Shown piece by piece: positions 18,019 to 47,038 of a DNA stretch of 64,000 bases (the first letter of the stretch is position 1; each line of letters opens with the position of its first letter). The notes under the pieces were generated by a model that worked only from the letters and a program-made list of their open reading frames with translations, was not told where the DNA came from and searched no databases. The stretch spans positions 1 to 64,000 of the IMG/VR virus record IMGVR_UViG_2886098363_000001. One strand, written 5' to 3'. The translations under genes and the position numbers were made by a program. This stretch comes from a virus. Taxonomy: Duplodnaviria; Caudoviricetes.

Positions 18019-18045
18019 AAAAAGCCCAGCGCGAGGGCTGGGCTT
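18019..18045 (-). terminator. Intrinsic terminator after moron genes
   Basis: GC hairpin AGCCCAGC..GCTGGGCT with a U-tract on the minus strand. Confidence 0.7.
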
Positions 18046-18070
18046 GACTTGGTCTGGTGACGGAGGGGGG

Positions 18071-25043: not shown

Positions 25044-26972
25044 TTATTGCTGGGCGCCGTTCCCGGCACTGAGTTGCTTCTTGCGCTCGCCGGCGATCTG
25101 CTTGATACCTGCGATGATGTTCTGGTCGCCGGTTTCGTTGGCCCAGGTCCAGGCGGTGGTGTAGGCCTGCTGCCATTCGGTGGTATCACATGCCCCCTCG
25201 ATGGCGGCGCAGTGGTCGGCGTAGGCGTTGGCGTGGTCCGCCTGGGCGGGTTCGGCCATCTGCTCATGCTCCAGGGTGACCGATTCGATGCTCTGGCCGC
25301 GGATGGCATCCAGGGTGCGGCTCTTTGCCGGTGCGCCATGCTGCGGTTGGCTACCTGGGATCTCGTTGATGATGATCTCCTTGCCCTCCATCTCCTCGGC
25401 GGTGGGCTCGCTACCGATCTCCGGCCAGGCCTTGCGTAGCGCCTGCGCTTCTGTGCAATTTCCACACAGCATAGACAGCCCCTTGCGACGAACAACGATG
25501 ACGCCGGATGGCACAGTGACGCACCATACTTGGCCACCTATGTTTGGTTGAATGGTTAGTGAGGCGCGGTTCTTCTCAACGCCCTTTACCACCGGAGAGC
25601 TGATGGTTTCCGAGAGTGTGAACCGGCTACATTGGCCAAGGTCGCTATTTTGAACAGCAGCAACGCTTATCGAGTAGCCAGCTTGCACGGCCAGCACCTC
25701 GAAGGCTTTAATGACATTGGCGTTCGACTGGTGTAACCGCCGCACCGAACCATTATGTGATCCGTCGAACTCCAAAAGGGCATCAACGACAATCCGCGCT
25801 TGGCGCACCGAAAGACTTAGCGCCCACTCAGGGCTTACAGATTTGTCGTGGCACATGATGCCGTTGACCAGCGCTGCGTCATATGTGAATGACTGTTTGT
25901 TACTGGTCGTAGTTATGGGACGATCACCACCGCTGATCCGGCCTGCATCCCGTTTTATTGTCTTTCGCATGTGCAACTTGAGTGAATCAAGTGCGAGCAC
26001 CTTGTATGGGCGCGATACGGCGATGCGGTACTGGTGATAGCCGGTATGTGAACCATCCGCCAGCAAATACCCAACCAGAGCCAGCAGGGAATCTGAAAAT
26101 GGTGCGTCTCCACGGTTTCCCAAAACTGTGCGAGGAATGCTCCATTTATCAGAATCCGTGGTGGCTTGCTCGTAAAGCAACCCCGCCTCGACCCTGCCCT
26201 GATTCGTGATCATGTCGTGATTTGGCGTCACGCAGAAATTTAGGCGAGTGCCATCGGCAACGACCATGGGGCCGTCATAACTCTGAACGAATGGTACAGC
26301 ATCGGTGTATTCGAGTCCGGCATCGGTAACCTGCAAAATACGACCTGTAACTTGGGCGAATCGTTGGAACCCCTCGGAAGTAAGCACCTCAGTCTCCGAG
26401 TCAAAACATTTTGCCAGCTGGGCATACGGACGCTTACGCCACATGGCGTTGGGGCACTCGGTCTTTCCGCTCTGGGTTGCGTAGTTCTCCTTCCAGCGCT
26501 CCAGGGCGTGGAAGGCAACCCGCTGGCCGTTGACCATCTTATAGACGGTGTACTTGCACCACTGCGGGTAGGTGACCTTGATCTTGGCGCTCTGGTTGTA
26601 GGGGTCTTGGAACTCTTCGGTGACATCCGGCCCGAACACGGGTTCATCGGCCCCCGCGTAGTTGCCGGAGCGATCGGCCTGGATCCGGTACATGCCGATC
26701 CCGGGCATCGGCACATCCCGCCAGACCTTCTCTTTGCTGCGGGCATCGGTTACCTGCATGGGGACGAGGTGGACCGGCTTGAGCAGAATATCCAGGCCGC
26801 GCGCCTTACAGTAGTCGATGGCCATGACCACCGAATCGGGGTTGGCTCCCGGGTAAATGGTGTTGCACAGGGCGTTCCAGGTCGGCTCGTCGATGCCTCG
26901 CTGGACAAGAATGGGGAACTGGGCGGCGAAGTTATCGGCCGCCTGCTGTTTGAGGCTGGTGATGTTGCTCAT
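25044..26972 (-). CDS. bet: Bet-like single-strand annealing protein precursor containing an intein
   Basis: YCKARGLDILLKPVHLVP, GIGMYRIQADRSG, MWRKRPYAQLAK|CTEAQALRKAWPE once the insert is removed. Confidence 0.9.
   Translation of the reverse strand: MSNITSLKQQAADNFAAQFPILVQRGIDEPTWNALCNTIYPGANPDSVVMAIDYCKARGLDILLKPVHLVPMQVTDARSKEKVWRDVPMPGIGMYRIQADRSGNYAGADEPVFGPDVTEEFQDPYNQSAKIKVTYPQWCKYTVYKMVNGQRVAFHALERWKENYATQSGKTECPNAMWRKRPYAQLAKCFDSETEVLTSEGFQRFAQVTGRILQVTDAGLEYTDAVPFVQSYDGPMVVADGTRLNFCVTPNHDMITNQGRVEAGLLYEQATTDSDKWSIPRTVLGNRGDAPFSDSLLALVGYLLADGSHTGYHQYRIAVSRPYKVLALDSLKLHMRKTIKRDAGRISGGDRPITTTSNKQSFTYDAALVNGIMCHDKSVSPEWALSLSVRQARIVVDALLEFDGSHNGSVRRLHQSNANVIKAFEVLAVQAGYSISVAAVQNSDLGQCSRFTLSETISSPVVKGVEKNRASLTIQPNIGGQVWCVTVPSGVIVVRRKGLSMLCGNCTEAQALRKAWPEIGSEPTAEEMEGKEIIINEIPGSQPQHGAPAKSRTLDAIRGQSIESVTLEHEQMAEPAQADHANAYADHCAAIEGACDTTEWQQAYTTAWTWANETGDQNIIAGIKQIAGERKKQLSAGNGAQQ
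25458..26408 (-). mobile_element. 317-aa intein with LAGLIDADG homing endonuclease
   Basis: Begins CFDSETEVLT; block B VTPNH; GYLLADG and ALLEFDG motifs; ends VIVVRRKGLSMLCGN before Cys+1; AT-richer than flanks. Confidence 0.92.
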
Positions 26973-27814
26973 GCTGCTTTCCTTGTCGCCCAGGCTGGGC
27001 GCTGGAGGGGTTTGAAGTCGTGCCAGTCGTTGTTGACCCGGCAGTCGTGGAAGCGATGGAGGTCGCGGCGGAACAGGTCCTTGCCCGCATCCTTCCAGTC
27101 ATCCGTCAGGGGGCGCACCCGCACCGGGTAGCGGCCACAGTTCACGCTGGTGCTGACAGCCAGAAAGACGAATTCCGGCTCCTCGCCCATCACCCGGTGG
27201 AAGCCTTCGGAGTACATGGCATCCTGCACGTGGTAGCGGAAGTCCTCGACATGGCGCTCGAAGCGCCCCATATCGTCCACCGACTTCACGTCGATCATGA
27301 TGGGGTGATTGCTCAGGTGGCGGTCGGGGCGGATCCGGCACAGCTCCTGGGTCTGGGGGTCAATCCAGTAGAAGGAGGCCTCGCTGTGCCCTTCCTGCTC
27401 CAGCAGCCAGCGGGCGTCCGGGTGGGCCATCACGCTGTCGCGCATCAGGTAGAGCTTGCGTCCCTCCTCGGCATCCATCACCGTCTTGCCCAGCTCTGCG
27501 CAGCTGGCTAGGAACTCAGCCTCTTCTGCCTTGCCGGCGTTGGTGCGGCGGTTGAACGGTGGGGCGATGATGAAGCGGTCTTTGAACTCGTCGGGCTCCA
27601 GCAGCAGGCAGTGGATGGCGCTGCCCATGTCGAAGGCCTTGAGCTTCTCCTCATCTACCGGGGCATTCTTGGCCCAGATATAGGTGGCTGGGCTTTCGGC
27701 GATCTGGTCGAGCTGGCTTTTGCTGACCCCGGGGCCAGCGTGGTACTCCTCGTTGGAGAGGCCGAACACCCGGCCAAGCAGGTGCGCGGTGGAGGTGTCG
27801 GCGATGGCATTCAT
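26969..27814 (-). CDS. recE: RecE/exodeoxyribonuclease VIII-like PD-(D/E)XK exonuclease
   Basis: LSNEEYHAGPGVSKSQLD, GSAIHCLLLEP, CRIRPD, IDVKS, YHVQDAMY. Confidence 0.9.
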   Translation of the reverse strand: MNAIADTSTAHLLGRVFGLSNEEYHAGPGVSKSQLDQIAESPATYIWAKNAPVDEEKLKAFDMGSAIHCLLLEPDEFKDRFIIAPPFNRRTNAGKAEEAEFLASCAELGKTVMDAEEGRKLYLMRDSVMAHPDARWLLEQEGHSEASFYWIDPQTQELCRIRPDRHLSNHPIMIDVKSVDDMGRFERHVEDFRYHVQDAMYSEGFHRVMGEEPEFVFLAVSTSVNCGRYPVRVRPLTDDWKDAGKDLFRRDLHRFHDCRVNNDWHDFKPLQRPAWATRKAA

Positions 27815-28393: not shown

Positions 28394-28870
28394 TTAGTCG
28401 CTGGTCACGCTGATGGTCAGCTGTTTGCCGCGCCCCATAAAGTCAGCCAGGGCGGCGACGCGATCCTGCTGTTGGGTGACGCGGTGGCGCTGGCTGGTAT
28501 CCAGCACATCCAGATTGACGTTGACGCTGACCTCGACCAACTTGCGGGTCTCGCGTTCCAGCGTCTTGGTGTACTGCTTGGCGGCAATGGCTATCTGTTC
28601 GGACGGGGAAGCCAGCTCGTAACCGTGCCCACGCTTGATGTCGAGATAGATCTTGCGCTCGGTCAGCAGCAGCTCCCGCAACTCGTTGACGCTACGCAGC
28701 ACCCGCCACTCATACTCGTCGCGGGCAGCATCGTATTCGGGGATGCTGTGGTATTTTTCCGGGAAGGGGCGTTCCAACCCCAGCATGCGGCGCAAGTCTG
28801 CGTGACTGATGAAATCGCCGTAGTGGAGCCCGAGAGCATCCCAGGCTGTCAGTTGTTCTTCCTGAGTCAT
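28394..28870 (-). CDS. Accessory protein coupled to the RAMP-like gene
   Basis: 158 aa; its ATG overlaps the upstream TGA (ATGA); helical C-terminus. Confidence 0.75.
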   Translation of the reverse strand: MTQEEQLTAWDALGLHYGDFISHADLRRMLGLERPFPEKYHSIPEYDAARDEYEWRVLRSVNELRELLLTERKIYLDIKRGHGYELASPSEQIAIAAKQYTKTLERETRKLVEVSVNVNLDVLDTSQRHRVTQQQDRVAALADFMGRGKQLTISVTSD

Positions 28871-29454
28871 CCGGCCACCTCCACGTTGAAGCGGCCGTAA
28901 GTGCCGCCGCAGGCTGGGCGCCAGTCGCCCACGCCCACATAGCGACCGGCGTTGCCGAGCACGGTCAGCAGTTCGCTGCGATCCAGCCTGGTGTCGTCAA
29001 ATTCGATGTGAAAGACCAGTTGCCAGCCAGCAGGGAAGCGCGGGCGGTGGCGCATCACTCGTGCGGTCCCCACCTTGACGCTTTTGGCCAGCGAGAAGCC
29101 CGGCGTGTCTACCAGTTGCTGCGGGTCTTGCGGGCCGTCGTAGCGCAGTGTGATCTCATCTTCCAGCACCAGCAGGCTGCGCTTGAATTCGGTACCCAAC
29201 TTGTTGAGCTTGGCCGCCTCGGTCAGGCAGGCTTTCAGGTTGCTGCCCGGCAGGTGGATGCCACTGGCCCTGCTGAAGTAGATCGCCCCCAGTAGTTCGG
29301 AGCGGGCGATATCCTCGTGGTCGGTGTCGGATTTCTTGCGCTTGGAGGTCAATGCCTTGTGCGCCTTGGTCATCGGATCCAGCGGGTCGCTAAAGCGGTC
29401 GCTGTGCATCAGTAACGGGGTGGTGCCCGTCAGTGTCAGTTTCAGTGTTGCCAT
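28867..29454 (-). CDS. Stand-alone RAMP/Cas7-like protein (candidate Vipr-type effector), 195 aa
   Basis: N-terminal LKLTLTGTTPLLMH strand, LPGSNLKACL helix, C-terminal Gly-rich loop GRYVGVGDWRPACGGTYGRF; GAGGA RBS before ATG 29454. Confidence 0.75.
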   Translation of the reverse strand: MATLKLTLTGTTPLLMHSDRFSDPLDPMTKAHKALTSKRKKSDTDHEDIARSELLGAIYFSRASGIHLPGSNLKACLTEAAKLNKLGTEFKRSLLVLEDEITLRYDGPQDPQQLVDTPGFSLAKSVKVGTARVMRHRPRFPAGWQLVFHIEFDDTRLDRSELLTVLGNAGRYVGVGDWRPACGGTYGRFNVEVAG

Positions 29455-29485
29455 TGTGTAGTCCTCGTTGATGTGCCCTTCCGGG

Positions 29486-29547
29486 CCCTTGCCTTGCCCA
29501 GCCAAGCCGGGCCCTGCCACGCCGCGCCCAGCCGGGCCGAGCCGCAG
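29486..29547 (-). ncRNA. GGC-NN pentamer array unit 2 (candidate guide RNA)
   Basis: CTGC GGCtc GGCcc GGCtg GGCgc GGCgt GGCag GGCcc GGCtt GGCtg GGCaa GGCaa GGG, followed by a GCCC-GGAA-GGGC hairpin. Confidence 0.8.
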
Positions 29548-29608
29548 GGCCAAACACACTCAGGGAATGCGCTTGGCGCTGGGCGGTTTTTAACGAGGAC
29601 CGCCACCT

Positions 29609-29670
29609 CCCACGCCTTGCCACGCCATGCCACGCCATGCCCGGCCCTGCCTTGCCTCGCCAGGCCGCAG
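29609..29670 (-). ncRNA. GGC-NN pentamer array unit 1 (candidate guide RNA)
   Basis: CTGC GGCct GGCga GGCaa GGCag GGCcg GGCat GGCgt GGCat GGCgt GGCaa GGCgt GGG, between hairpins at 29668-29704 and 29582-29604. Confidence 0.8.
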
Positions 29671-30080
29671 CCTGGAACCCCCTGTGACAAGAGGCTCCAG
29701 GCTGGCCACTGTCACCAGTGGCCTGCCGGTTACGTTATCCGGCGCTGTCTGGTCAGCCGTTCGCGGTGTCGCGCTCTTGCCGCTAATAACAGGTATCCAC
29801 CCCAGAGTTGCGGACTGCTCTACCCATGCCGCTTGGTTTATTGACCCTGGCCAGATGCAAAGCTGGCTCCCTACAAGGGGACTCGGGGCGCCATCATTAC
29901 TGGCGCATGGATTGGCCGCTTTTAACGGCTGTCGGTCACATCGTTCGCACTCCATGTTGTGTTGAGGTCGCAATAGTCGAGTGATAAATCGTTCACGTTC
30001 ACACGCCGCTTTCCGAATTTACGGGTTATCGGCGCATCCCTACCGGCATCGGGATTCGTGGTTGTGAGCCGGTTCCTGGT

Positions 30081-30092
30081 TGTTAAAGAGCG
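30081..30092 (-). promoter_or_regulatory. boxA antitermination element
   Basis: CGCTCTTTAACA on the pL-direction strand, near-identical to the rrn/nut boxA consensus. Confidence 0.65.
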
Positions 30093-30191: not shown

Positions 30192-30446
30192 TCAGATGGC
30201 GTTGCGGTGGAACTCAGCGCGCCAGTGGAGGAGGGCGCGGCATTTCATGGCGGTCATGGTGCGCACCTTGGCAGACTGGGCGGTGCGGGCTGCGACGAGC
30301 TGGTGCCGCTCGGTGGCCATCATGGCAACCGCCAAGCGTTGCTTGATGGTTCGGCGGCGGGCGGCGTTGCCGTTCAGGCGGTCGGCGATGGCGGCAACGA
30401 TCTGGTCGGCGCGTTTTGCGGCTCTGGAAATAGTGACTTTCATCAT
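30192..30446 (-). CDS. First pL gene; small basic protein, possibly N-like
   Basis: MMKVTISRAAKRADQIVAAIADRLNGNAARRRTIKQRLA; Arg-rich. Confidence 0.55.
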   Translation of the reverse strand: MMKVTISRAAKRADQIVAAIADRLNGNAARRRTIKQRLAVAMMATERHQLVAARTAQSAKVRTMTAMKCRALLHWRAEFHRNAI

Positions 30447-30828
30447 GTTATCCTTGCGTCTGTTGGCGAGTTGGTCCTCGCTAATTCCCAGTTGATTCGT
30501 CATGCTGGGTCCTGATTGCTGGGGTTGGTCCCTCGGCTTTCACTGACCGGGTGGTACCCGGTCCTTCGAAGCCCGCCTTGTGCGGGCTTTGTCGTTCTTA
30601 CGCGCTGGTCAGGCGCTTCACTGCTGCCCTGGTTGGGGCTGGGTCCTGTTGCTGGGTGGTACTCAATTCTTTGCTGGCTTTTTACTCCGCCAGATCCGGA
30701 GGTTTGCCGGTTACGTCTCCGGCCCGGGCTCTCACCGTTCGTGTGGCATTACCCAAGACCTTCACCACGATTGGCCGCCTTCCACGCTGCCCCTTGTTGC
30801 TCCCGGCCTTGGGTATTCCATCTCAGCC

Positions 30829-30918
30829 CTTTCCAATTTGAACCGGTTGTTGCTGTTTTGGAATGAGCTGATTATTGCCAAATAGAAATGAAAGGTCAAT
30901 GACGTTCCAAAAAGAAAT
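30829..30918 (-). promoter_or_regulatory. pL promoter with oL operators
   Basis: TTGACC(30899-30894)-17-AATAAT(30876-30871); operator-like 16-mers at 30829, 30874, 30903 (consensus ATTTC-N6-GAAAT). Confidence 0.65.
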
Positions 30919-30986: not shown

Positions 30987-31598
30987 TCAAGAGGGGAGGC
31001 GGATCTCGATAACTTTGCCTATGGGGAGTAGTTGTTTATCGGTGAGAGAACCTGCACGAGGGTCATCCACGCCATAACGCCAATCTGGTAGGCCCTGGAT
31101 CGCACGCAGGAACATGAACTTGTCGTCCACCTTGGCCAGCATGATCTTGTTGTGTTCTGGCTTGTTATCACTGAGATCAACCAAGCACAAGGCTCCATTG
31201 GTAATGCCTGCATCAGCCAGTTGGTCATTGTCAGCTACCACGGCTATCAGGTGGCCGTCCCTCTCTGTAGCCAGCTTGCGGCCTGTGTCTGCGTGGGGCC
31301 AGGCATCGATAGTGGGGTCTTCCAGTAGCCCAGGCATAGTAAAAACAGGCACCATGCCGGGACCCGCTTCGATGTCACGAATAAGGCTGTCTGCGGAGCG
31401 CCCTAGATATAGCCAGACAGGGTCAACCTTCAACTGCTTGGCAATGGACATGAGGCTACTTGCTCTAACCTCTCGGCCAGGTTCAGAGAGTATTCGGCTG
31501 ATCACCGGTGGGGATATCCCTGTTTTGCGGCTCAGTTCAGCGGCGCTCACATGTAACTCTTTCATCCTTGCCTGCAATCGTTCCGCAAAGTTTTTCAT
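30987..31598 (-). CDS. cI: CI-like repressor (HTH + S24-like C-domain)
   Basis: LHVSAAELSRKTGISPPVISRIL HTH; divergent from cro. Confidence 0.85.
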   Translation of the reverse strand: MKNFAERLQARMKELHVSAAELSRKTGISPPVISRILSEPGREVRASSLMSIAKQLKVDPVWLYLGRSADSLIRDIEAGPGMVPVFTMPGLLEDPTIDAWPHADTGRKLATERDGHLIAVVADNDQLADAGITNGALCLVDLSDNKPEHNKIMLAKVDDKFMFLRAIQGLPDWRYGVDDPRAGSLTDKQLLPIGKVIEIRLPS

Positions 31599-31727: not shown

Positions 31728-31943
31728 ATGCGTATCGACGATGTAACCAAGTTCTTTGGCAATGCGGCCAAGGCGTGCAACGCCATCGGCACGAGCCAAT
31801 CAAATTTCACCAAGTGGAGGAAGCTGAACAAGGGCATTGTCCCGGCCCAGCATGCCGTCCAGTTTGTGTTGGCCAGCAATGGCGAGCTGCGACTGGGGCT
31901 GGAGGATTACTCCCTCAGCAAGACCCAAGACCAAGCCGCCTAA
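31728..31943 (+). CDS. cro: Cro-like repressor
   Basis: FFGNAAKACNAIGTSQSNFTKW...GIVPAQHA. Confidence 0.85.
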   Translation: MRIDDVTKFFGNAAKACNAIGTSQSNFTKWRKLNKGIVPAQHAVQFVLASNGELRLGLEDYSLSKTQDQAA

Positions 31944-31975: not shown

Positions 31976-32761
31976 ATGACCAATTTGATTAGCAAGGCCT
32001 TTGAAGGGCACAACATTCGCATCATTACCGACCAGCAGGGCGAGCCCTGGTTCGTGGCTGCCGATATTGCCAGGGCTTTGGGGTACAACGATGCCGATCA
32101 AGCCATCCGCCGCCACTGCAAGGGTGTGACTAAAGCCCCCGTTGAAACGACGGGGGGTATGCAACGAGTCTCTATCATCCCCGAGCGCGACGTTTACCGC
32201 CTCGTCATGCGATCCAAACTCGAAAGCGCAGAGCGTTTTGAAGAGTGGGTGGTAGGTGAAGTGTTGCCCAGCATCCGCAAGCATGGCGGCTACATTGCCG
32301 GTCAGGAGCAGGATGCGCCGGAGCTGATCATGGCCAAGGCGCTGATGGTAGCGCAATCCGTGATCGACCGGAAAAGCCAAGAGCTGGCTGCCGCCCAGCA
32401 GACCATTGCGGCCAACGCCCCTGCAGTGGCGTTTGCCGGTCTGGTCGCGGAGGATGACAAGGGCGTTTTGCTCGGGAACTTCGCCAAGGCAATTGGCTTT
32501 GGCCCCCGGAAGATTTTCCCGCTGCTGCACGAGCTGCGCATCCTGATGCAGGGTGGCAATCGTCATAACCTGCCGTTCCAGGAGTATCTGGATCGGGGTT
32601 ATTTCAAGGTGGTCGAGAAACCTTATAACGCGAATGGCGAAACCCGCATCAGTTTTATCACGCATGTCACCGGTAAGGGCCAGCAGTGGCTGACCAAGCG
32701 TCTGCTCGATCTTGGTTACCTTAAGGCTAGCGCGGGCAGCGCTAGCTTGGAGGGGATCTAA
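31976..32761 (+). CDS. BRO-N / KilAC antirepressor
   Basis: EPWFVAADIARALGY, YRLVMRSKLESAERFEEWVVGEVLPSIRKHGGY, VTGKGQQW. Confidence 0.92.
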   Translation: MTNLISKAFEGHNIRIITDQQGEPWFVAADIARALGYNDADQAIRRHCKGVTKAPVETTGGMQRVSIIPERDVYRLVMRSKLESAERFEEWVVGEVLPSIRKHGGYIAGQEQDAPELIMAKALMVAQSVIDRKSQELAAAQQTIAANAPAVAFAGLVAEDDKGVLLGNFAKAIGFGPRKIFPLLHELRILMQGGNRHNLPFQEYLDRGYFKVVEKPYNANGETRISFITHVTGKGQQWLTKRLLDLGYLKASAGSASLEGI

Positions 32762-33140: not shown

Positions 33141-33530
33141 ATGGGAAGAGTAACGCTCCCCGATCATGAAAATATGAGCACCCGCTCCCCGCTGCGGGTG
33201 CGCGGCACCCCAGCTCAGCGCCAGGTATGGCAGGAAGTAGGCGCCGAGTGTGGCATGACTGAAACCGCATTTGCCCGCACCTCGCTGCTGATCCTGCTCC
33301 AGGCAATATCTCAGCATGAGCCCGGCATCTTGGCGAGGGCCGTCAAACGGGCCAATCGGAGCCTGCTCGAGCAGGGATTTCCGCCCGTGACCGTCGAGGA
33401 GATCCTGGATGGCTCCGGTCTGCCCGAGCGCGGCCTGCTCCAGTTCAGCCAAGAAGACGAGGCCGCCTACAACGAGGAGCGCCCGCTGCGCCCCCTGCAA
33501 AAACTCATCAACTTTGTCCTCGGGAGGTAA
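33141..33530 (+). CDS. Hypothetical regulator (CII position)
   Basis: RHH-like PLRVRGTPAQRQVWQEVG; GAGG RBS. Confidence 0.6.
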   Translation: MGRVTLPDHENMSTRSPLRVRGTPAQRQVWQEVGAECGMTETAFARTSLLILLQAISQHEPGILARAVKRANRSLLEQGFPPVTVEEILDGSGLPERGLLQFSQEDEAAYNEERPLRPLQKLINFVLGR

Positions 33531-33958: not shown

Positions 33959-34082
33959 TCCGTCATCTGTTGCCACCTGGGAGCTCTATGAGCTCAAGAA
34001 GCGTGAATTGCAAGCAATGGGGTTATCCCAGCGTGAGTACGAGCTGGCCGTGCGCCAGCTTGCTGATGAGCTGGGGGTGTGA
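33951..34082 (+). CDS. 43-aa hypothetical protein
   Basis: Hand-translated MANPSSVATWELYELKKREL...; GGAGG RBS; coupled to the O gene. Confidence 0.5.
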   Translation: MANPSSVATWELYELKKRELQAMGLSQREYELAVRQLADELGV

Positions 34083-34083
34083 G

Positions 34084-34881
34084 ATGAGCATGGCTCTTAT
34101 GGTTAAGGCGATGAGCATCAAGGTAGGTAACCCGCTTCGCAAACTGGTGCTGATCAAGCTGGCAGACAATGCCAGCGACAACGGTGAATGCTGGCCATCA
34201 CATCAGCATATTGCCGATCAGTGTGAGATCTCCCGGCGTTCAGTGATCAATCACATTGAGGCTCTGTGTGAATCCGGCTTGCTGAAAAAAGAGGGTCGAT
34301 TAGGGCCTAATGGCAAGAAGTCGAACATGTACGTTTTGAGTCTTGATGGTGCAGGAGCTGCACATCAGAATGTGCAGGAGATTCACCAGGGTGGTGCAGG
34401 AGCTGCACATCCGAATGTGCAGGAGATTCACCAGGGTGGTGCAGGAGCTGCACAAGGGGGTGGTGCAGGAGCTGCACATAGAATCAGTCACTCTTTAGAA
34501 CCAGTCATTGAACCAGTAATACCCCCTGTATCCCCCAAGGGGGAAAAATCAAAGCGCGGGACGCGTTTGCCTGATGACTGGAAACTTCCCAAAGCCTGGG
34601 GTGAGTGGGCAATGACCGAGCTTGGCCTGTTGCGAAACCAGATCCTGCTGGAGGCGGAAACTTTCGCCGACTACTGGCAATCACTGCCAGGCGCCAAGGC
34701 GGTGAAGCTGGACTGGGAGAAGACCTGGCGAAACTGGGTCCGTCGCTCCTGCACCAGCCCGTCGCGAAAACCTGCTAACCGCAAACCGGAGCCGCCGATG
34801 CCACGGGCCTTTGGCGAGGACGCTGCCCCGAGCGGCAAGCCATCGGCTCCGGCCTTCCGTCCACGCGCTTTCGGGGAGTGA
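34084..34881 (+). CDS. Replication initiator (O-like, wHTH)
   Basis: KLVLIKLADNASDNGECWPSHQHIADQCEISRRSVINHI; internal iterons. Confidence 0.9.
   Translation: MSMALMVKAMSIKVGNPLRKLVLIKLADNASDNGECWPSHQHIADQCEISRRSVINHIEALCESGLLKKEGRLGPNGKKSNMYVLSLDGAGAAHQNVQEIHQGGAGAAHPNVQEIHQGGAGAAQGGGAGAAHRISHSLEPVIEPVIPPVSPKGEKSKRGTRLPDDWKLPKAWGEWAMTELGLLRNQILLEAETFADYWQSLPGAKAVKLDWEKTWRNWVRRSCTSPSRKPANRKPEPPMPRAFGEDAAPSGKPSAPAFRPRAFGE
34348..34479 (+). repeat. Replication-origin iterons inside the O gene
   Basis: Four GGTGCAGGAGCTGCACA (34348, 34393, 34438, 34462) and two TGTGCAGGAGATTCACC; 45-bp duplication. Confidence 0.85.
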
Positions 34882-46072: not shown

Positions 46073-47038
46073 ATGACCGACAAGGTTGAGTTGAAAGGTG
46101 TACTTGAAGCAGCCCTCAGTGAAGATGGTGGCATTATCCTCATCCGTAACGCGATGGCCGAGTTCCAGTCGCACAAGAAGGTTCATGCGGCAGTAATCTC
46201 CGAGATTCATCCGTGTGATGATCATGGCAGCTTCATGATCGACATCTCCAGCCCCCTCAATGCCGATATCACCATTCCCTACATGGTTACCCCTGACATG
46301 GTTGCCCGCTTTACCCCCAGCATTGGTGACTACATCGTGCTCTATGAGAACGACTATGTGTCATTCAGCCCGAAAGATGTGTTTGAGGGTGGATACCTCA
46401 TGATCGAAGAACCGGCCGTGTGCGCCAGTGAAGAAGATGCCGAGATGGAGCGCGAGATCCAGACTCTCGGACTGACCGCGCCGCGTGTTACTCCGGACCA
46501 GATCGATGCTCTGATGCGTGGCGTTCGCTATGAGGTTCAGGTTGTTCCCGGTACCACAACCACGCTGGCTACCGCCATTGCTGCCAACGGCTTCACCCTG
46601 GCCATCGGCATGACCGCCTGCGCCGACCCGGCCAACTTCAATGCAGATCTTGGCGCCAAGTACGCCATCAAGGATGCCGAAGCCAAGGCCCGCCAAGAGC
46701 TGTGGAAGCTGGAAGGGTGGCGGCTCAAGTGCCAGCTGGCAGAACAGTCGAGCCTCTCACCCACCCCAGATCCCATTTTCACCGGGTTCGCCAACTATCA
46801 TTCCAAGCCTATCGTGCGCACCGCTCACCAGATCACCGAGGCCGATATCGTTGACGATATTGACGAGGTAGACGGCAGAGGAAGCTACATACTGGCCTTC
46901 ATCAAGAATGGCGAGGAACATATCTACAACTTCTTTGCCAACAAGCGTCCGGTGTTGGGGGATTACGTCGTATTCCTCAACGCTGATGATATGTATCACT
47001 GCGACAAGGCCACGTTCGACGAGCGCAACCACACCTGA
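46073..47038 (+). CDS. Three-domain moron: duplicated P..GDY.V domain flanking a Gp49-family domain
   Basis: APRVTPDQID...NGF..IGMTACADPANFNADLGAKYA...LWKLEGW core; PSIGDYIV and PVLGDYVV repeats. Confidence 0.75.
   Translation: MTDKVELKGVLEAALSEDGGIILIRNAMAEFQSHKKVHAAVISEIHPCDDHGSFMIDISSPLNADITIPYMVTPDMVARFTPSIGDYIVLYENDYVSFSPKDVFEGGYLMIEEPAVCASEEDAEMEREIQTLGLTAPRVTPDQIDALMRGVRYEVQVVPGTTTTLATAIAANGFTLAIGMTACADPANFNADLGAKYAIKDAEAKARQELWKLEGWRLKCQLAEQSSLSPTPDPIFTGFANYHSKPIVRTAHQITEADIVDDIDEVDGRGSYILAFIKNGEEHIYNFFANKRPVLGDYVVFLNADDMYHCDKATFDERNHT

What the first reader, a model, noticed from the sequence alone, without database searches (positions are those of the whole stretch)
28394..29704. 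Candidate RNA-guided system: GGC-NN pentamer arrays feeding a stand-alone RAMP/Cas7-like gene
Seen in sequence (minus strand): two 62-nt units 123 nt apart, each CTGC + 11x(GGC-NN) + GGG, with hairpins around them (29668-29704, 29582-29604, 29475-29486). The GGC is invariant and the period is exactly 5, while the NN dinucleotides differ within and between units. The 10th NN is AA in both. A 195-aa gene starts 32 nt after unit 2 and has RAMP hallmarks: N-terminal LTLTGTTPLLMH strand, LPGSNLK helix and a C-terminal Gly-rich loop. Established: RAMP/Cas7 proteins polymerise along guide RNAs with a fixed nucleotide step. Inference: each pentamer binds one subunit, GGC is the handle and NN the information, which makes a CRISPR-independent programmable phage module with no cas1/cas2 or nuclease in view. 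From memory this matches recently reported VIPR systems (Vipr protein + GGY/NN vrRNA), so the class may be known; I could not verify that here.
Basis: partly seen in the sequence, partly recalled or inferred. Interest (0 to 1): 0.95.

Follow-up and report, generated by a model that had tools for sequence, protein, structure and literature searches.

The report
VIPR guide-RNA system in Aeromonas-type prophage
This is a genuine example of the VIPR system first described in 2026 (a small Cas7-like protein plus guide RNAs built from GGY-NN five-base repeats), carried by a lambda-like prophage, and one of its two guides exactly spells the start of an early gene in rival sister phages while the phage's own copy of that gene does not match.

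Summary
This scan has also met VIPR many times before: 183 notes in at least 149 other genomes.

- **Arrays.** The minus strand carries two arrays of exactly 11 GGC-NN units, each preceded by CTGC and followed by GGG.
- **Vipr.** The 195-aa gene matches the solved SUSP1 Vipr protein over its full length (E = 1.5e-47). It keeps the GGY-binding residues and folds as a Cas7/Csm3-like RAMP.
- **Accessory gene.** The overlapping 158-aa gene is homologous to the gene that follows vipr in SUSP1-type and LESphi2 phages (vap1-like).
- **Sister loci.** In phages whose Vipr is 96-100% identical, GGY, the leader and the tails are conserved, while NN strings, unit numbers and array numbers differ.

New here:
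- Under the published 1-nt-skip rule, units 1-9 of guide vr1 match perfectly (18/18) the start codon region of the first early-left gene of VIPR-less sister prophages. Skipped bases fall on wobble positions. The phage's own allele scores 10/18.
- A sister phage's guide hits the same region of another allele.
- A third sister guide hits this window at 33261-33295.
- No target was found for vr2.

Verdict: a new member of a known kind.

The parts
29705..29722 (-). Leader hairpin 1: 7-bp stem GCCACUG/CAGUGGC with a GNRA-type loop (GUGA here, GCAA in relatives).
   Evidence: The stem is invariant in relatives, and the loop stays GNRA.
29668..29704 (-). Leader hairpin 2: a long stem directly before vr1. 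Its 3' arm runs into the conserved CTGC prefix.
   Evidence: 4 pairs with compensatory double changes among 6 relatives; the leader as a whole folds at -43.8 kcal/mol, z = -6.75.
29612..29667 (-). vrRNA 1 repeat tract: C, then 11 x GGC-NN. NN = CT GA AA AG CG AT GT AT GT AA GT.
   Evidence: Its units 1-9 match a rival allele 18/18. The tract has no structure of its own (z = +0.27).
29569..29611 (-). Tail A of vr1: GGG, then an H-type pseudoknot motif (S1 29606-29609 with 29595-29598; S2 29600-29604 with 29582-29586; A-rich loop GUUAAAAA), then a small hairpin GCGC-CAA-GCGC (29569-29579).
   Evidence: the same pseudoknot layout occurs in 3 of 3 tails of a SUSP1-type phage with different stem sequences, while shuffled tails give a mean of 0.44 hits. 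The SUSP1 tail pseudoknot is reported in the preprints. A nested fold alone is not significant (z = -0.4).
29489..29547 (-). vrRNA 2: CTGC prefix, then 11 x GGC-NN. NN = TC CC TG GC GT AG CC TT TG AA AA.
   Evidence: No natural target was found.
29475..29488 (-). Tail B of vr2: GGG, then hairpin GCCC-GGAA-GGGC. The vipr ribosome-binding site follows directly.
   Evidence: z = -2.6. It is conserved in all sister loci as the tail nearest vipr. It resembles the hairpin-first tails of most family members.
28867..29454 (-). vipr: 195-aa Vipr protein, a minimal RAMP.
   Evidence: PDB 36pp 'SUSP1 Vipr protein', E = 1.5e-47; phrog_4652, E = 1.5e-63. RAMP fold. H17, K33, R137, D177, W178 and R179 are kept.
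28394..28870 (-). vap1-like accessory gene, 158 aa. Its start overlaps the vipr stop (ATGA).
   Evidence: homologous to the gene after vipr in ESCO50 (SUSP1-type, E = 1e-18) and LESphi2 (E = 3e-12); phrog_5926; a homologue follows vipr in 52 of 80 family loci; confident model with only weak winged-helix-like hits.
30192..30446 (-). The phage's own allele of the 84-aa first gene of the early-left operon. The rival allele of this gene is the predicted vr1 target. Function unknown.
   Evidence: own allele scores 10/18 against 18/18 for the rival allele. No Pfam, PHROG or atlas hit.
33261..33295 (.). Predicted incoming target site. It matches the first guide of sister phage G003 at 21/24, inside the 118-aa early-right gene 33174-33530(+), with skipped bases on wobble positions.
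   Evidence: The same site is present in G001, G002, L013 and phiARM81mr p26.
30871..30899 (-). Promoter-like site TTGACC-17-AATAAT downstream of the cI-like terminator. It is a candidate early-left promoter that would drive the small gene, the vrRNAs, vipr and vap.
   Evidence: 10 of 12 consensus positions. This is a consensus match only, not tested.
30080..30092 (-). boxA-like CGCTCTTTAACAA between the small gene and the VIPR leader.
   Evidence: The exact TGCTCTTTAACAA sits at the same place in L012 and phiARM81mr. This is a lead only, and it is not significant by count alone.

Best explanation
The locus is a complete VIPR system with the type II layout (vrRNAs, then vipr, then vap1). It sits as a cassette in the early-left operon of a lambda-like, Aeromonas-type prophage.

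Proposed mechanism:
1. The early-left transcript, or an unrecognised local promoter, yields two vrRNAs. vr1 is about 100 nt and vr2 about 70-75 nt. This step is inferred.
2. Vipr protomers polymerise one per GGC-NN unit. They sequester each GGC and present the NN dinucleotides. This is shown for SUSP1 Vipr and inferred here from homology and conserved contact residues.
3. The filament binds double-stranded DNA that matches NN-x-NN-x..., skipping every third base, and blocks transcription.
4. The vap1-like protein, probably a DNA binder, enhances the effect.

Natural target of vr1: the start-codon region (one codon before the ATG plus the first seven codons and two bases of the eighth) of the first early-left gene in VIPR-less sister prophages of the G001/L013/L014 type. 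A filament there should act as a roadblock on the rival's whole early-left operon. The carrier's own allele is diverged at exactly that patch and escapes.

Sister phages aim their guides at the same patch in other alleles, and one aims at an early-right gene of this phage. The system therefore serves competition among closely related prophages. The target of vr2 is unknown.
For: **Membership**
- full-length match to the solved SUSP1 Vipr, E = 1.5e-47.
- the G1/G2/Y3 and skip-base contact residues H17, K33, R137 (SUSP1 R138), D177, W178 and R179 are kept.
- RAMP fold.
- the accessory gene is homologous to the one beside SUSP1-type vipr.
- in loci with 96-100% identical Vipr, GGY, leader and tails are conserved while NN, unit number (9-13) and array number (1-4) differ.
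- across 211 unique arrays, G is 0.97, G is 0.94, Y is 0.955, and NN entropy is 1.92 and 1.99 bits.
- SUSP1-like pseudoknot tail.

**Target**
- three exact IMG/VR hits for vr1 units 1-9, all at one orthologous site.
- three other 18-base patterns scanned in the same collection gave 0 hits: the backwards vr1 pattern as a control, and two vr2 guide patterns.
- the site is the RBS-ATG start of the gene next to the VIPR slot, with skipped bases on wobble positions.
- own allele 10/18, rival 18/18, other alleles 16/18.
- L005's first guide matches 20/24 (null maximum 18) in the 35 nt that end 5 nt before the same gene's ATG in G003. G003's first guide matches 21/24 (null maximum 19) in this window.
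- no self-target above the null.
- diversity is raised across the target patch between near-invariant flanks.
- the DNA held for the targeted relatives carries no vipr or vap.
- published mechanism, skip rule, wobble bias, and prophage-regulator and VIPR-versus-VIPR targeting.
Against: - No expression, processing or binding data exist for this locus. The vrRNA ends and the promoter are inferred.
- vr1's match stops at unit 9 (19/22 overall).
- The three IMG/VR hits are one homologous site, so they count as one independent event.
- vr2 has no target in the own provirus, four sister proviruses, IMG/VR (exact) or metagenomes. The 20 exact metagenome hits fall into about 9 unrelated groups, which is chance level.
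- The target gene's function is unknown, so the consequence of silencing it is inferred.
- Type II assignment could not be checked against the authors' phylogeny because no supplementary tables are held.
- The Y3-pocket residues E71 and M72 of SUSP1 are S71 and N72 here.
- The variable patch at the target is not the only variable patch in that region.
Confidence: 0.88

Rival explanations
1. It is a genuine VIPR locus, but the vr1 match to the sister-phage gene is a by-product of shared ancestry or chance. The real targets, for vr2 as well, lie elsewhere: in host genes, plasmids or unrelated phages not present in the collections searched.
For: vr2 has no detectable target. The vr1 hits are one orthologous site. 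Only exact sub-patterns could be scanned in the big collections, so imperfect matches at or above 80% elsewhere would be missed. No Aeromonas pangenome was available.
Against: The backwards vr1 control and the two vr2 guide patterns, all of the same information content, gave 0 hits in IMG/VR. The hit lies within about 1 kb of the VIPR slot in sister phages, at a start codon and in wobble register. A second, unrelated guide from L005 hits the adjacent 35 nt in another allele. Arrays and target share no sequence ancestry, because the guide is a gapped code rather than a copy.
Confidence: 0.15
2. The arrays are not guide RNAs. They would be a GC-rich tandem repeat or a cis-regulatory or translated leader of the downstream gene, for example the 230-aa extended ORF or the 82-aa ORFs that overlap them.
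For: ORFs do run through the arrays, and public gene calls extend vipr through vr2 to 217-300 aa. A G-rich 5-nt repeat could form structures that attenuate expression.
Against: Homologues align from Met1 at 29454. NN varies freely, and unit counts change by non-multiples of 3 nt between phages with identical Vipr, which is incompatible with a conserved reading frame. The repeat has no fold of its own (z = +0.27). The same GGY/NN signature accompanies Vipr homologues on the same strand in 77 of 80 loci. vrRNAs of homologous systems are shown to be expressed and bound by Vipr.
Confidence: 0.02
3. The locus is a decaying or inactive VIPR remnant carried passively by the prophage.
For: vr2 lacks the long pseudoknot tail and has no target. 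Sister phage G002 carries a chimeric single array made by a deletion between vr1 and vr2. Some sister arrays have degenerate units. Relatives have lost or never had the cassette.
Against: Both arrays here have 11 of 11 perfect GGC units. vipr and vap are intact and translationally coupled. The contact residues are conserved. vr1 has a perfect 9-unit match to a plausible rival. Vipr is 96-100% conserved across phages whose guides have turned over completely, which implies purifying selection on the protein together with guide turnover.
Confidence: 0.05

Closest known systems
Type II VIPR of the Pseudomonas fulva prophage and relatives such as Pseudomonas phage LESphi2 (bioRxiv 10.64898/2026.04.26.720920)
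   Same: [quoted passage not shown] It is carried by a temperate phage next to the cI/cro region. Natural targets are resident or related prophages, mainly early or regulatory genes, and there is no self-targeting. Tail B here is a hairpin right after GGG, as in LESphi2 tails.
   Different: Vipr is only 48% identical to the LESphi2 protein and vap only 27%. The host is Aeromonas-type. The internal vrRNA has a SUSP1-like pseudoknot tail rather than the two-hairpin tail. The target found here is the start of the first early-left gene, with allele-specific escape.
Type II VIPR of Escherichia phage SUSP1 (Felixounavirus). The solved Vipr is PDB 36pp; see bioRxiv 10.64898/2026.04.26.720920, .720927 and 10.64898/2026.10.15.759431
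   Same: Homologous Vipr (E = 1.5e-47, about 45% identity) with the same RNA-contact residues. Homologous accessory gene (E = 1e-18). vrRNAs of 9-16 GGY-NN units ending in GG(G). H-type pseudoknot tail with the same layout and an A-rich loop.
   Different: SUSP1 is a virulent phage with one vrRNA upstream and three downstream, uses mostly GGT, and targets a satellite's recombinase. Here the carrier is a temperate lambdoid prophage, all vrRNAs are upstream, units are all GGC, two tail types share one array, and the target is a sister prophage.
Class 1 CRISPR backbone (Cas7/Csm3 filament on crRNA)
   Same: RAMP fold with RRM core, G-loop and thumb. Protomers polymerise at a fixed step along a guide RNA and flip bases periodically.
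   Different: There is no CRISPR array, cas1/cas2, Cas6, large subunit or nuclease. The step is 5 nt with only 2 guide bases per protomer. The target is read with a 1-nt skip as double-stranded DNA and is silenced, not cut.

Membership tests
VIPR system (Vipr + vrRNA) | Vipr protein: a minimal RAMP homologous to described Vipr proteins | tested here: met
   PDB 36pp_D 'SUSP1 Vipr protein', E = 1.5e-47, residues 3-193 against 3-189; pLDDT 94, and Foldseek's top hits are Csm3/Cas7 with probability 1.0.
VIPR system (Vipr + vrRNA) | Residues that hold G1, G2 and Y3 and the skip base (SUSP1 H17, D177, R138, W178, R179, K33) | tested here: met
   H17, K33, R137 (aligned to R138), D177, W178 and R179 are present. 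The steric Y-pocket residues E71 and M72 are S71 and N72 here.
VIPR system (Vipr + vrRNA) | Adjacent non-coding arrays of 4 or more (typically 9-16) YNNGG/GGY-NN units on the vipr strand | tested here: met
   two arrays of 11 perfect units, ending 34 and 157 nt upstream of vipr on the same strand.
VIPR system (Vipr + vrRNA) | GGY conserved and NN hypervariable among close relatives | tested here: met
   five loci with 96-100% identical Vipr; 211 unique arrays; NN entropy 1.92 and 1.99 bits against 0.21 and 0.43 bits for the two G positions.
VIPR system (Vipr + vrRNA) | Conserved structured 3' tail after the repeat tract | tested here: met
   tail A (pseudoknot motif shared with SUSP1-type tails) and tail B (hairpin) are invariant across sister loci. 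127 of 152 family arrays have a hairpin within 6 nt of the array end.
VIPR system (Vipr + vrRNA) | No CRISPR array or cas genes; mobile-element context | tested here: met
   (IMG/VR provirus). (lambdoid prophage, 90% identical to Aeromonas phage phiARM81mr in the structural genes). No cas genes among the ORFs around the locus.
VIPR system (Vipr + vrRNA) | vrRNAs are expressed, co-purify with Vipr, and direct DNA binding by the 1-nt-skip rule | not testable with these tools
   Only indirect support: a natural 18/18 match under the xNN rule in wobble register.
VIPR type II (SUSP1 and P. fulva clades) | vap1-type accessory gene (predicted DNA binder) next to vipr | tested here: met
   homology to the gene following vipr in ESCO50 (its Vipr is about 96% identical to SUSP1's) and in LESphi2; the model gives only weak, mostly winged-helix hits, so DNA binding is not shown.
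VIPR type II (SUSP1 and P. fulva clades) | Placement inside the type II clade of the authors' Vipr phylogeny | not tested
   The type tables and tree are not held. The only evidence is 45-48% identity to the two type II exemplar families.
CRISPR-Cas class 1 | CRISPR repeat-spacer array plus cas1/cas2 or multi-subunit effector genes | tested here: not met
   No such array or genes in the locus or the window. There is a single RAMP only.

The most novel reading that the evidence does not exclude
Sister lambdoid prophages of one host group wage reciprocal, allele-specific VIPR warfare centred on the start of the first early-left gene.
- Guides from different phages converge on this about 70-nt patch, and the patch diversifies to escape.
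- Guides turn over by replacement of whole vrRNAs and by recombination between arrays, as in the G002 chimera.
- A single Vipr serves vrRNAs with two or three different tail architectures, which implies the tail is a modular cap not read specifically by Vipr.
- Silencing at this position would shut the rival's whole early-left operon, presumably including recombination and excision functions, and so immobilise it.
Probability: 0.45. Interest if true: 0.55.

Novelty: new member of a known kind. Interest (0 to 1): 0.42.

Why it matters
The VIPR class was published in 2026, so the locus does not reveal a new kind of system. Its value is as a clean natural case.
- Guide, target allele, escape allele and VIPR-less victim are all identifiable within one family of near-identical prophages.
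- That gives a directly testable pair: Vipr-vr1 against the G001-type start allele versus the window-type start allele of the same gene.
- It extends the reported prophage-versus-prophage use of type II VIPR to Aeromonas-type lambdoid phages.
- It shows that pseudoknot and hairpin tails coexist in one array.
- It shows a guide chimera made by recombination between arrays.
- It flags an annotation artefact: gene callers extend vipr through the last vrRNA.

Tried and rejected
- **Pfam** on Vipr, vap, the 63-aa and 121-aa neighbours and the two target genes: nothing useful.
- **Rfam** on the locus: only one sub-threshold riboswitch match inside vipr, E = 0.9.
- **Relatives of a virus record** cannot be drawn, so no Aeromonas genome set could be searched by pattern.
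- **vr2 target**: not in the own provirus (16/22, which is null level), not in four sister proviruses at up to 3 mismatches, no exact hit in IMG/VR for units 1-9 or 2-10. The 20 exact metagenome hits fall into about 9 unrelated groups with GC 0.39-0.64 and no similarity to the phage backbones, so they are treated as chance.
- **Pseudoknot covariation**: the MAFFT alignment of tails from the two clades put the pseudoknot arms out of register, so I replaced formal pair counting with a motif search against shuffles.
- **Nested folding of tail A** is not better than shuffles.
- **Protein atlas** gave no lead for the 84-aa target protein, and only 'hypothetical viral' clusters for vap.
- **vap fold search** gave no hit below E = 0.03, and the profile against PDB sequences gave nothing.
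- **Supplementary tables** of the discovery preprint are not held, so I could not check whether this Aeromonas clade is among its 664 loci.
- **Other short GGY runs** in the record (18036-18060+, 18743-18762-) have 4-5 units and look like chance.
Full report
**1. Observation**

On the minus strand there are two tracts of exactly eleven GGC-NN pentamers, at 29612-29666 and 29489-29543. Each is preceded by CTGC and followed by GGG. They are the only runs of six or more GGY-NN units in the 64-kb window. They are also the only credible ones in the whole 76-kb provirus record.

- 29668-29704 is the second of two leader hairpins. The leader folds at -43.8 kcal/mol with z = -6.75, and hairpin 2 has four pairs with compensatory double changes among six relatives.
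- 29582-29604 is stem 2 of a pseudoknot motif in the tail of the first RNA.
- 29475-29486 is a GCCC-GGAA-GGGC hairpin after the second tract, z = -2.6.

The repeat tract itself has no fold beyond shuffles (z = +0.27).

**2. The protein genes**

ORF 28867-29454(-) encodes 195 aa.
- It has no Pfam family.
- It matches the solved 'SUSP1 Vipr protein' (PDB 36pp) over its whole length, E = 1.5e-47, and phrog_4652, E = 1.5e-63.
- The residues that the cryo-EM preprint reports as holding G1, G2, Y3 and the skipped target base (H17, D177, R138, W178, R179, K33) are present here as H17, D177, R137, W178, R179 and K33.
- The two steric Y-pocket residues E71 and M72 are S71 and N72 here.
- An AlphaFold2 model built on 36 homologues has pLDDT 94.1.
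- Foldseek's top PDB hits for it are Csm3/Cas7 backbone subunits of type III-A and type VII CRISPR complexes, with probability 1.0, E about 6e-6 and TM about 0.5. That library predates the Vipr entry.

The next ORF, 28394-28870(-), encodes 158 aa.
- Its start overlaps the vipr stop.
- It is homologous to the gene directly after vipr in Escherichia phage ESCO50 (E = 1e-18). ESCO50's Vipr is about 96% identical to SUSP1's.
- It is also homologous to the gene after vipr in Pseudomonas phage LESphi2 (E = 3e-12).
- A homologue follows vipr in 52 of 80 family loci. It is therefore a vap1-like accessory gene.
- Its model is confident (pLDDT 89.4), but Foldseek returns only weak hits (E of 0.04 or more), nearly all winged-helix DNA-binding domains. 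That agrees with the preprint's description of type II vap proteins as predicted DNA binders, but it is not proof.

**3. Comparative test of the arrays**

IMG/VR holds five loci whose Vipr is 96-100% identical to this one, and two at 69%.
- In the near-identical loci the leader, the CTGC prefix, GGY, GGG and the tails are conserved.
- The NN strings are unrelated, unit numbers range from 9 to 13, and there are one to four arrays.

I surveyed 80 IMG/VR loci with Vipr at 45-100% identity.
- 77 have arrays on the vipr strand, 64 of them within 1.2 kb upstream. Only three loci have any array on the opposite strand.
- Over 211 unique arrays the unit composition is G 0.97, G 0.94, Y 0.955, and NN entropy is 1.92 and 1.99 bits.
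- The last NN is AA in 82 of 152 arrays, and GGG follows in 115 of 152.

**4. Tails**

Tail A follows vr1 and the internal vrRNAs of sister loci. It reads GG-GAGG-U-GGCGG-U-CCUC-GUUAAAAA-CCGCC.
- The three tails of the SUSP1-type phage have the same H-type layout with different stem sequences (GUGG/CCAC with GGUAG/CUACC; AAGG/CCUU with GGCAG/CUGCC; GUAG/CUAC with AGUCUCA/UGAGACU) and the same A-rich loop.
- Among 146 unique family tails, only this clade, the SUSP1-type phage and two doubtful cases show the motif. Shuffled tails give a mean of 0.44.
- The preprints report a tail pseudoknot for the SUSP1 clade, and the cryo-EM work resolves it.

Tail B follows vr2 and is a short hairpin straight after GGG. 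It resembles the first hairpin of the two-hairpin tails that most family members have, LESphi2 included. Sister loci L006 and L007 add a third, two-hairpin tail. One Vipr thus appears to serve vrRNAs with different tails.

**5. Context**

The window is the first 64 kb of an IMG/VR provirus of 76,317 bp. Its structural genes are 90% identical over 76% of their length to Aeromonas phage phiARM81mr.

The immunity region is lambdoid:

| Coordinates | Gene |
|---|---|
| 30987-31598(-) | cI-like repressor (HTH plus S24 peptidase) |
| 31728-31943(+) | Cro-like |
| 31988-32761(+) | Ant (anti-repressor) |
| 33970-34881(+) | O-like replication gene |
| 26969-27814(-) | ExoVIII-like |
| 25044-26972(-) | RecT/Bet-like |

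The order on the minus strand, downstream of cI, is as follows:
1. Terminator, then a promoter-like site at 30899-30871.
2. A small 84-aa gene, 30192-30446.
3. A boxA-like CGCTCTTTAACAA at 30080-30092.
4. Leader hairpins, vr1, vr2, vipr and vap.
5. The recombination genes.

No separate promoter was called before the arrays. I therefore infer that the vrRNAs are cut out of the early-left transcript.

phiARM81mr has nothing between the small gene (p21) and the next gene. Provirus G001 keeps the leader hairpins but has a 101-aa signal-peptide ORF in place of the arrays, vipr and vap. VIPR is therefore a swappable cassette in a fixed slot.

**6. Natural targets**

I applied the published rule, in which GGY is replaced by one wildcard.

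Self-targeting: neither guide matches its own provirus beyond shuffled-guide nulls. The best scores are 15-16 of 22, and the null mean is 15.2-15.3.

vr1:
- Units 1-9 (18 specified bases) gave three exact hits in IMG/VR.
- All three lie at one orthologous site. On the opposite strand it reads AGGAG-N9-ACC ATG ACC ATA CGC CUU UUU UCC AG. This is the ribosome-binding site, the start codon and the first codons of the homologue of the window's own small gene, with every skipped base on a codon third position.
- The backwards control pattern and two vr2 patterns gave no hits in the same collection.

| Allele | vr1 units 1-9 |
|---|---|
| G001, L013, L014 | 18/18 |
| G003, L003, L005, phiARM81mr | 16/18 |
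| This phage and G002 | 10/18 |

- The DNA held for the perfectly matched relatives carries no vipr or vap.

All-against-all scan of the clade's guides over 318 kb of sister DNA, with 60 shuffles per guide. Only two further pairs rose above the null:
- L005's first guide matches 20/24 (null maximum 18) on the 35 nt that end 5 nt before the same gene's ATG in G003, on the other strand sense.
- G003's first guide matches 21/24 (null maximum 19) at window 33261-33295, again in wobble register. The site lies inside the 118-aa early-right gene 33174-33530 and is also present in phiARM81mr p26.

Pairwise diversity among nine relatives is 0.14-0.32 across the target patch and 0-0.09 in both flanks. 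Other variable patches exist further along.

vr2: no target was found.

**7. Mechanism and confidence**

- Shown here by sequence and structure: a complete vipr, vap1-like gene and vrRNA set with conserved contact residues, the family's GGY/NN signature, and an exact gapped match to a rival allele.
- Taken from the preprints: one protomer per pentamer, GGY sequestration, NN pairing with a 1-nt skip, triplex or R-loop binding of double-stranded DNA, transcriptional silencing, and enhancement by vap1.
- Inferred: co-transcription with the early-left operon, processing at the leader and tails, a roadblock of the rival's early-left operon, and escape by allele divergence.

I put membership in VIPR at about 0.95 and the vr1 target assignment at about 0.7.

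**8. Novelty**

VIPR is described in bioRxiv 10.64898/2026.04.26.720920, 10.64898/2026.04.26.720927 and 10.64898/2026.10.15.759431. It was recovered independently in 10.64898/2026.10.21.760802. No held paper mentions Aeromonas together with vrRNA. The supplementary locus tables are not held. This scan has flagged VIPR loci in at least 149 other genomes. The locus is therefore a new member of a known kind. Its specific points of interest are the allele-specific target and escape pair, convergent targeting by sister phages, mixed tail types in one array, and a recombinant chimeric guide in G002.

Noticed in passing
L004 2922-2966 (= G002 46905-46949), compared with window 29489-29666: A sister provirus with a 100% identical Vipr has one 9-unit array that equals window vr1 units 1-4 joined to vr2 units 7-11. 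The junction lies in the shared GGCAGGGCC, so a 133-nt deletion (or the reverse event) between arrays made a chimeric guide. That guide no longer matches vr1's target.
   Followed up: partly
window 30080-30092 (-): A boxA-like CGCTCTTTAACAA sits between the small early gene and the VIPR leader hairpins. The exact rrn-type TGCTCTTTAACAA is at the same place in L012 and phiARM81mr. This may be a nut-like antitermination site, with leader hairpin 1 (GNRA loop) as a boxB-like element. The count alone is not significant.
   Followed up: partly
L012 3824-4265 (G001) and KT898134 12202-12570: G001 keeps both leader hairpins but carries a 101-aa signal-peptide ORF where the arrays, vipr and vap sit in this window. 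phiARM81mr has neither the leader nor the cassette. The slot between the small gene and the 63-aa gene is a cargo-exchange point.
   Followed up: partly
window 29454-29559 (-); proteins P0001, P0002: Public gene calls for this protein are 217 and 300 aa, and the window ORF from GTG 29559 is 230 aa. They run upstream through vr2 (and vr1). This is an annotation artefact that hides the vrRNAs.
   Followed up: yes
window 25044-26972 (-): The RecT/Bet-like annealase ORF is 642 aa and has an intein-like insertion (begins CFDSETEVL..., ends ...SMLCGN/C). First readers of this genome noted it too.
   Followed up: no
window 33174-33530 (+): A 118-aa early-right gene between ant and the O-like replication gene (homologue of phiARM81mr p26) has no family match. 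It is the predicted target of a sister phage's vrRNA.
   Followed up: partly
window 30504-30870 (-): A roughly 370-nt untranslated leader lies between the promoter-like site and the small gene. It has repeated CCCAGCAAyAGGACCC motifs and a strong hairpin (30567-30591). Its function is unknown.
   Followed up: no
L109 14971-16604 (KT898134 36971-38604): phiARM81mr carries an annotated retron-type reverse transcriptase among its structural genes. I did not check whether this window has the counterpart.
   Followed up: no
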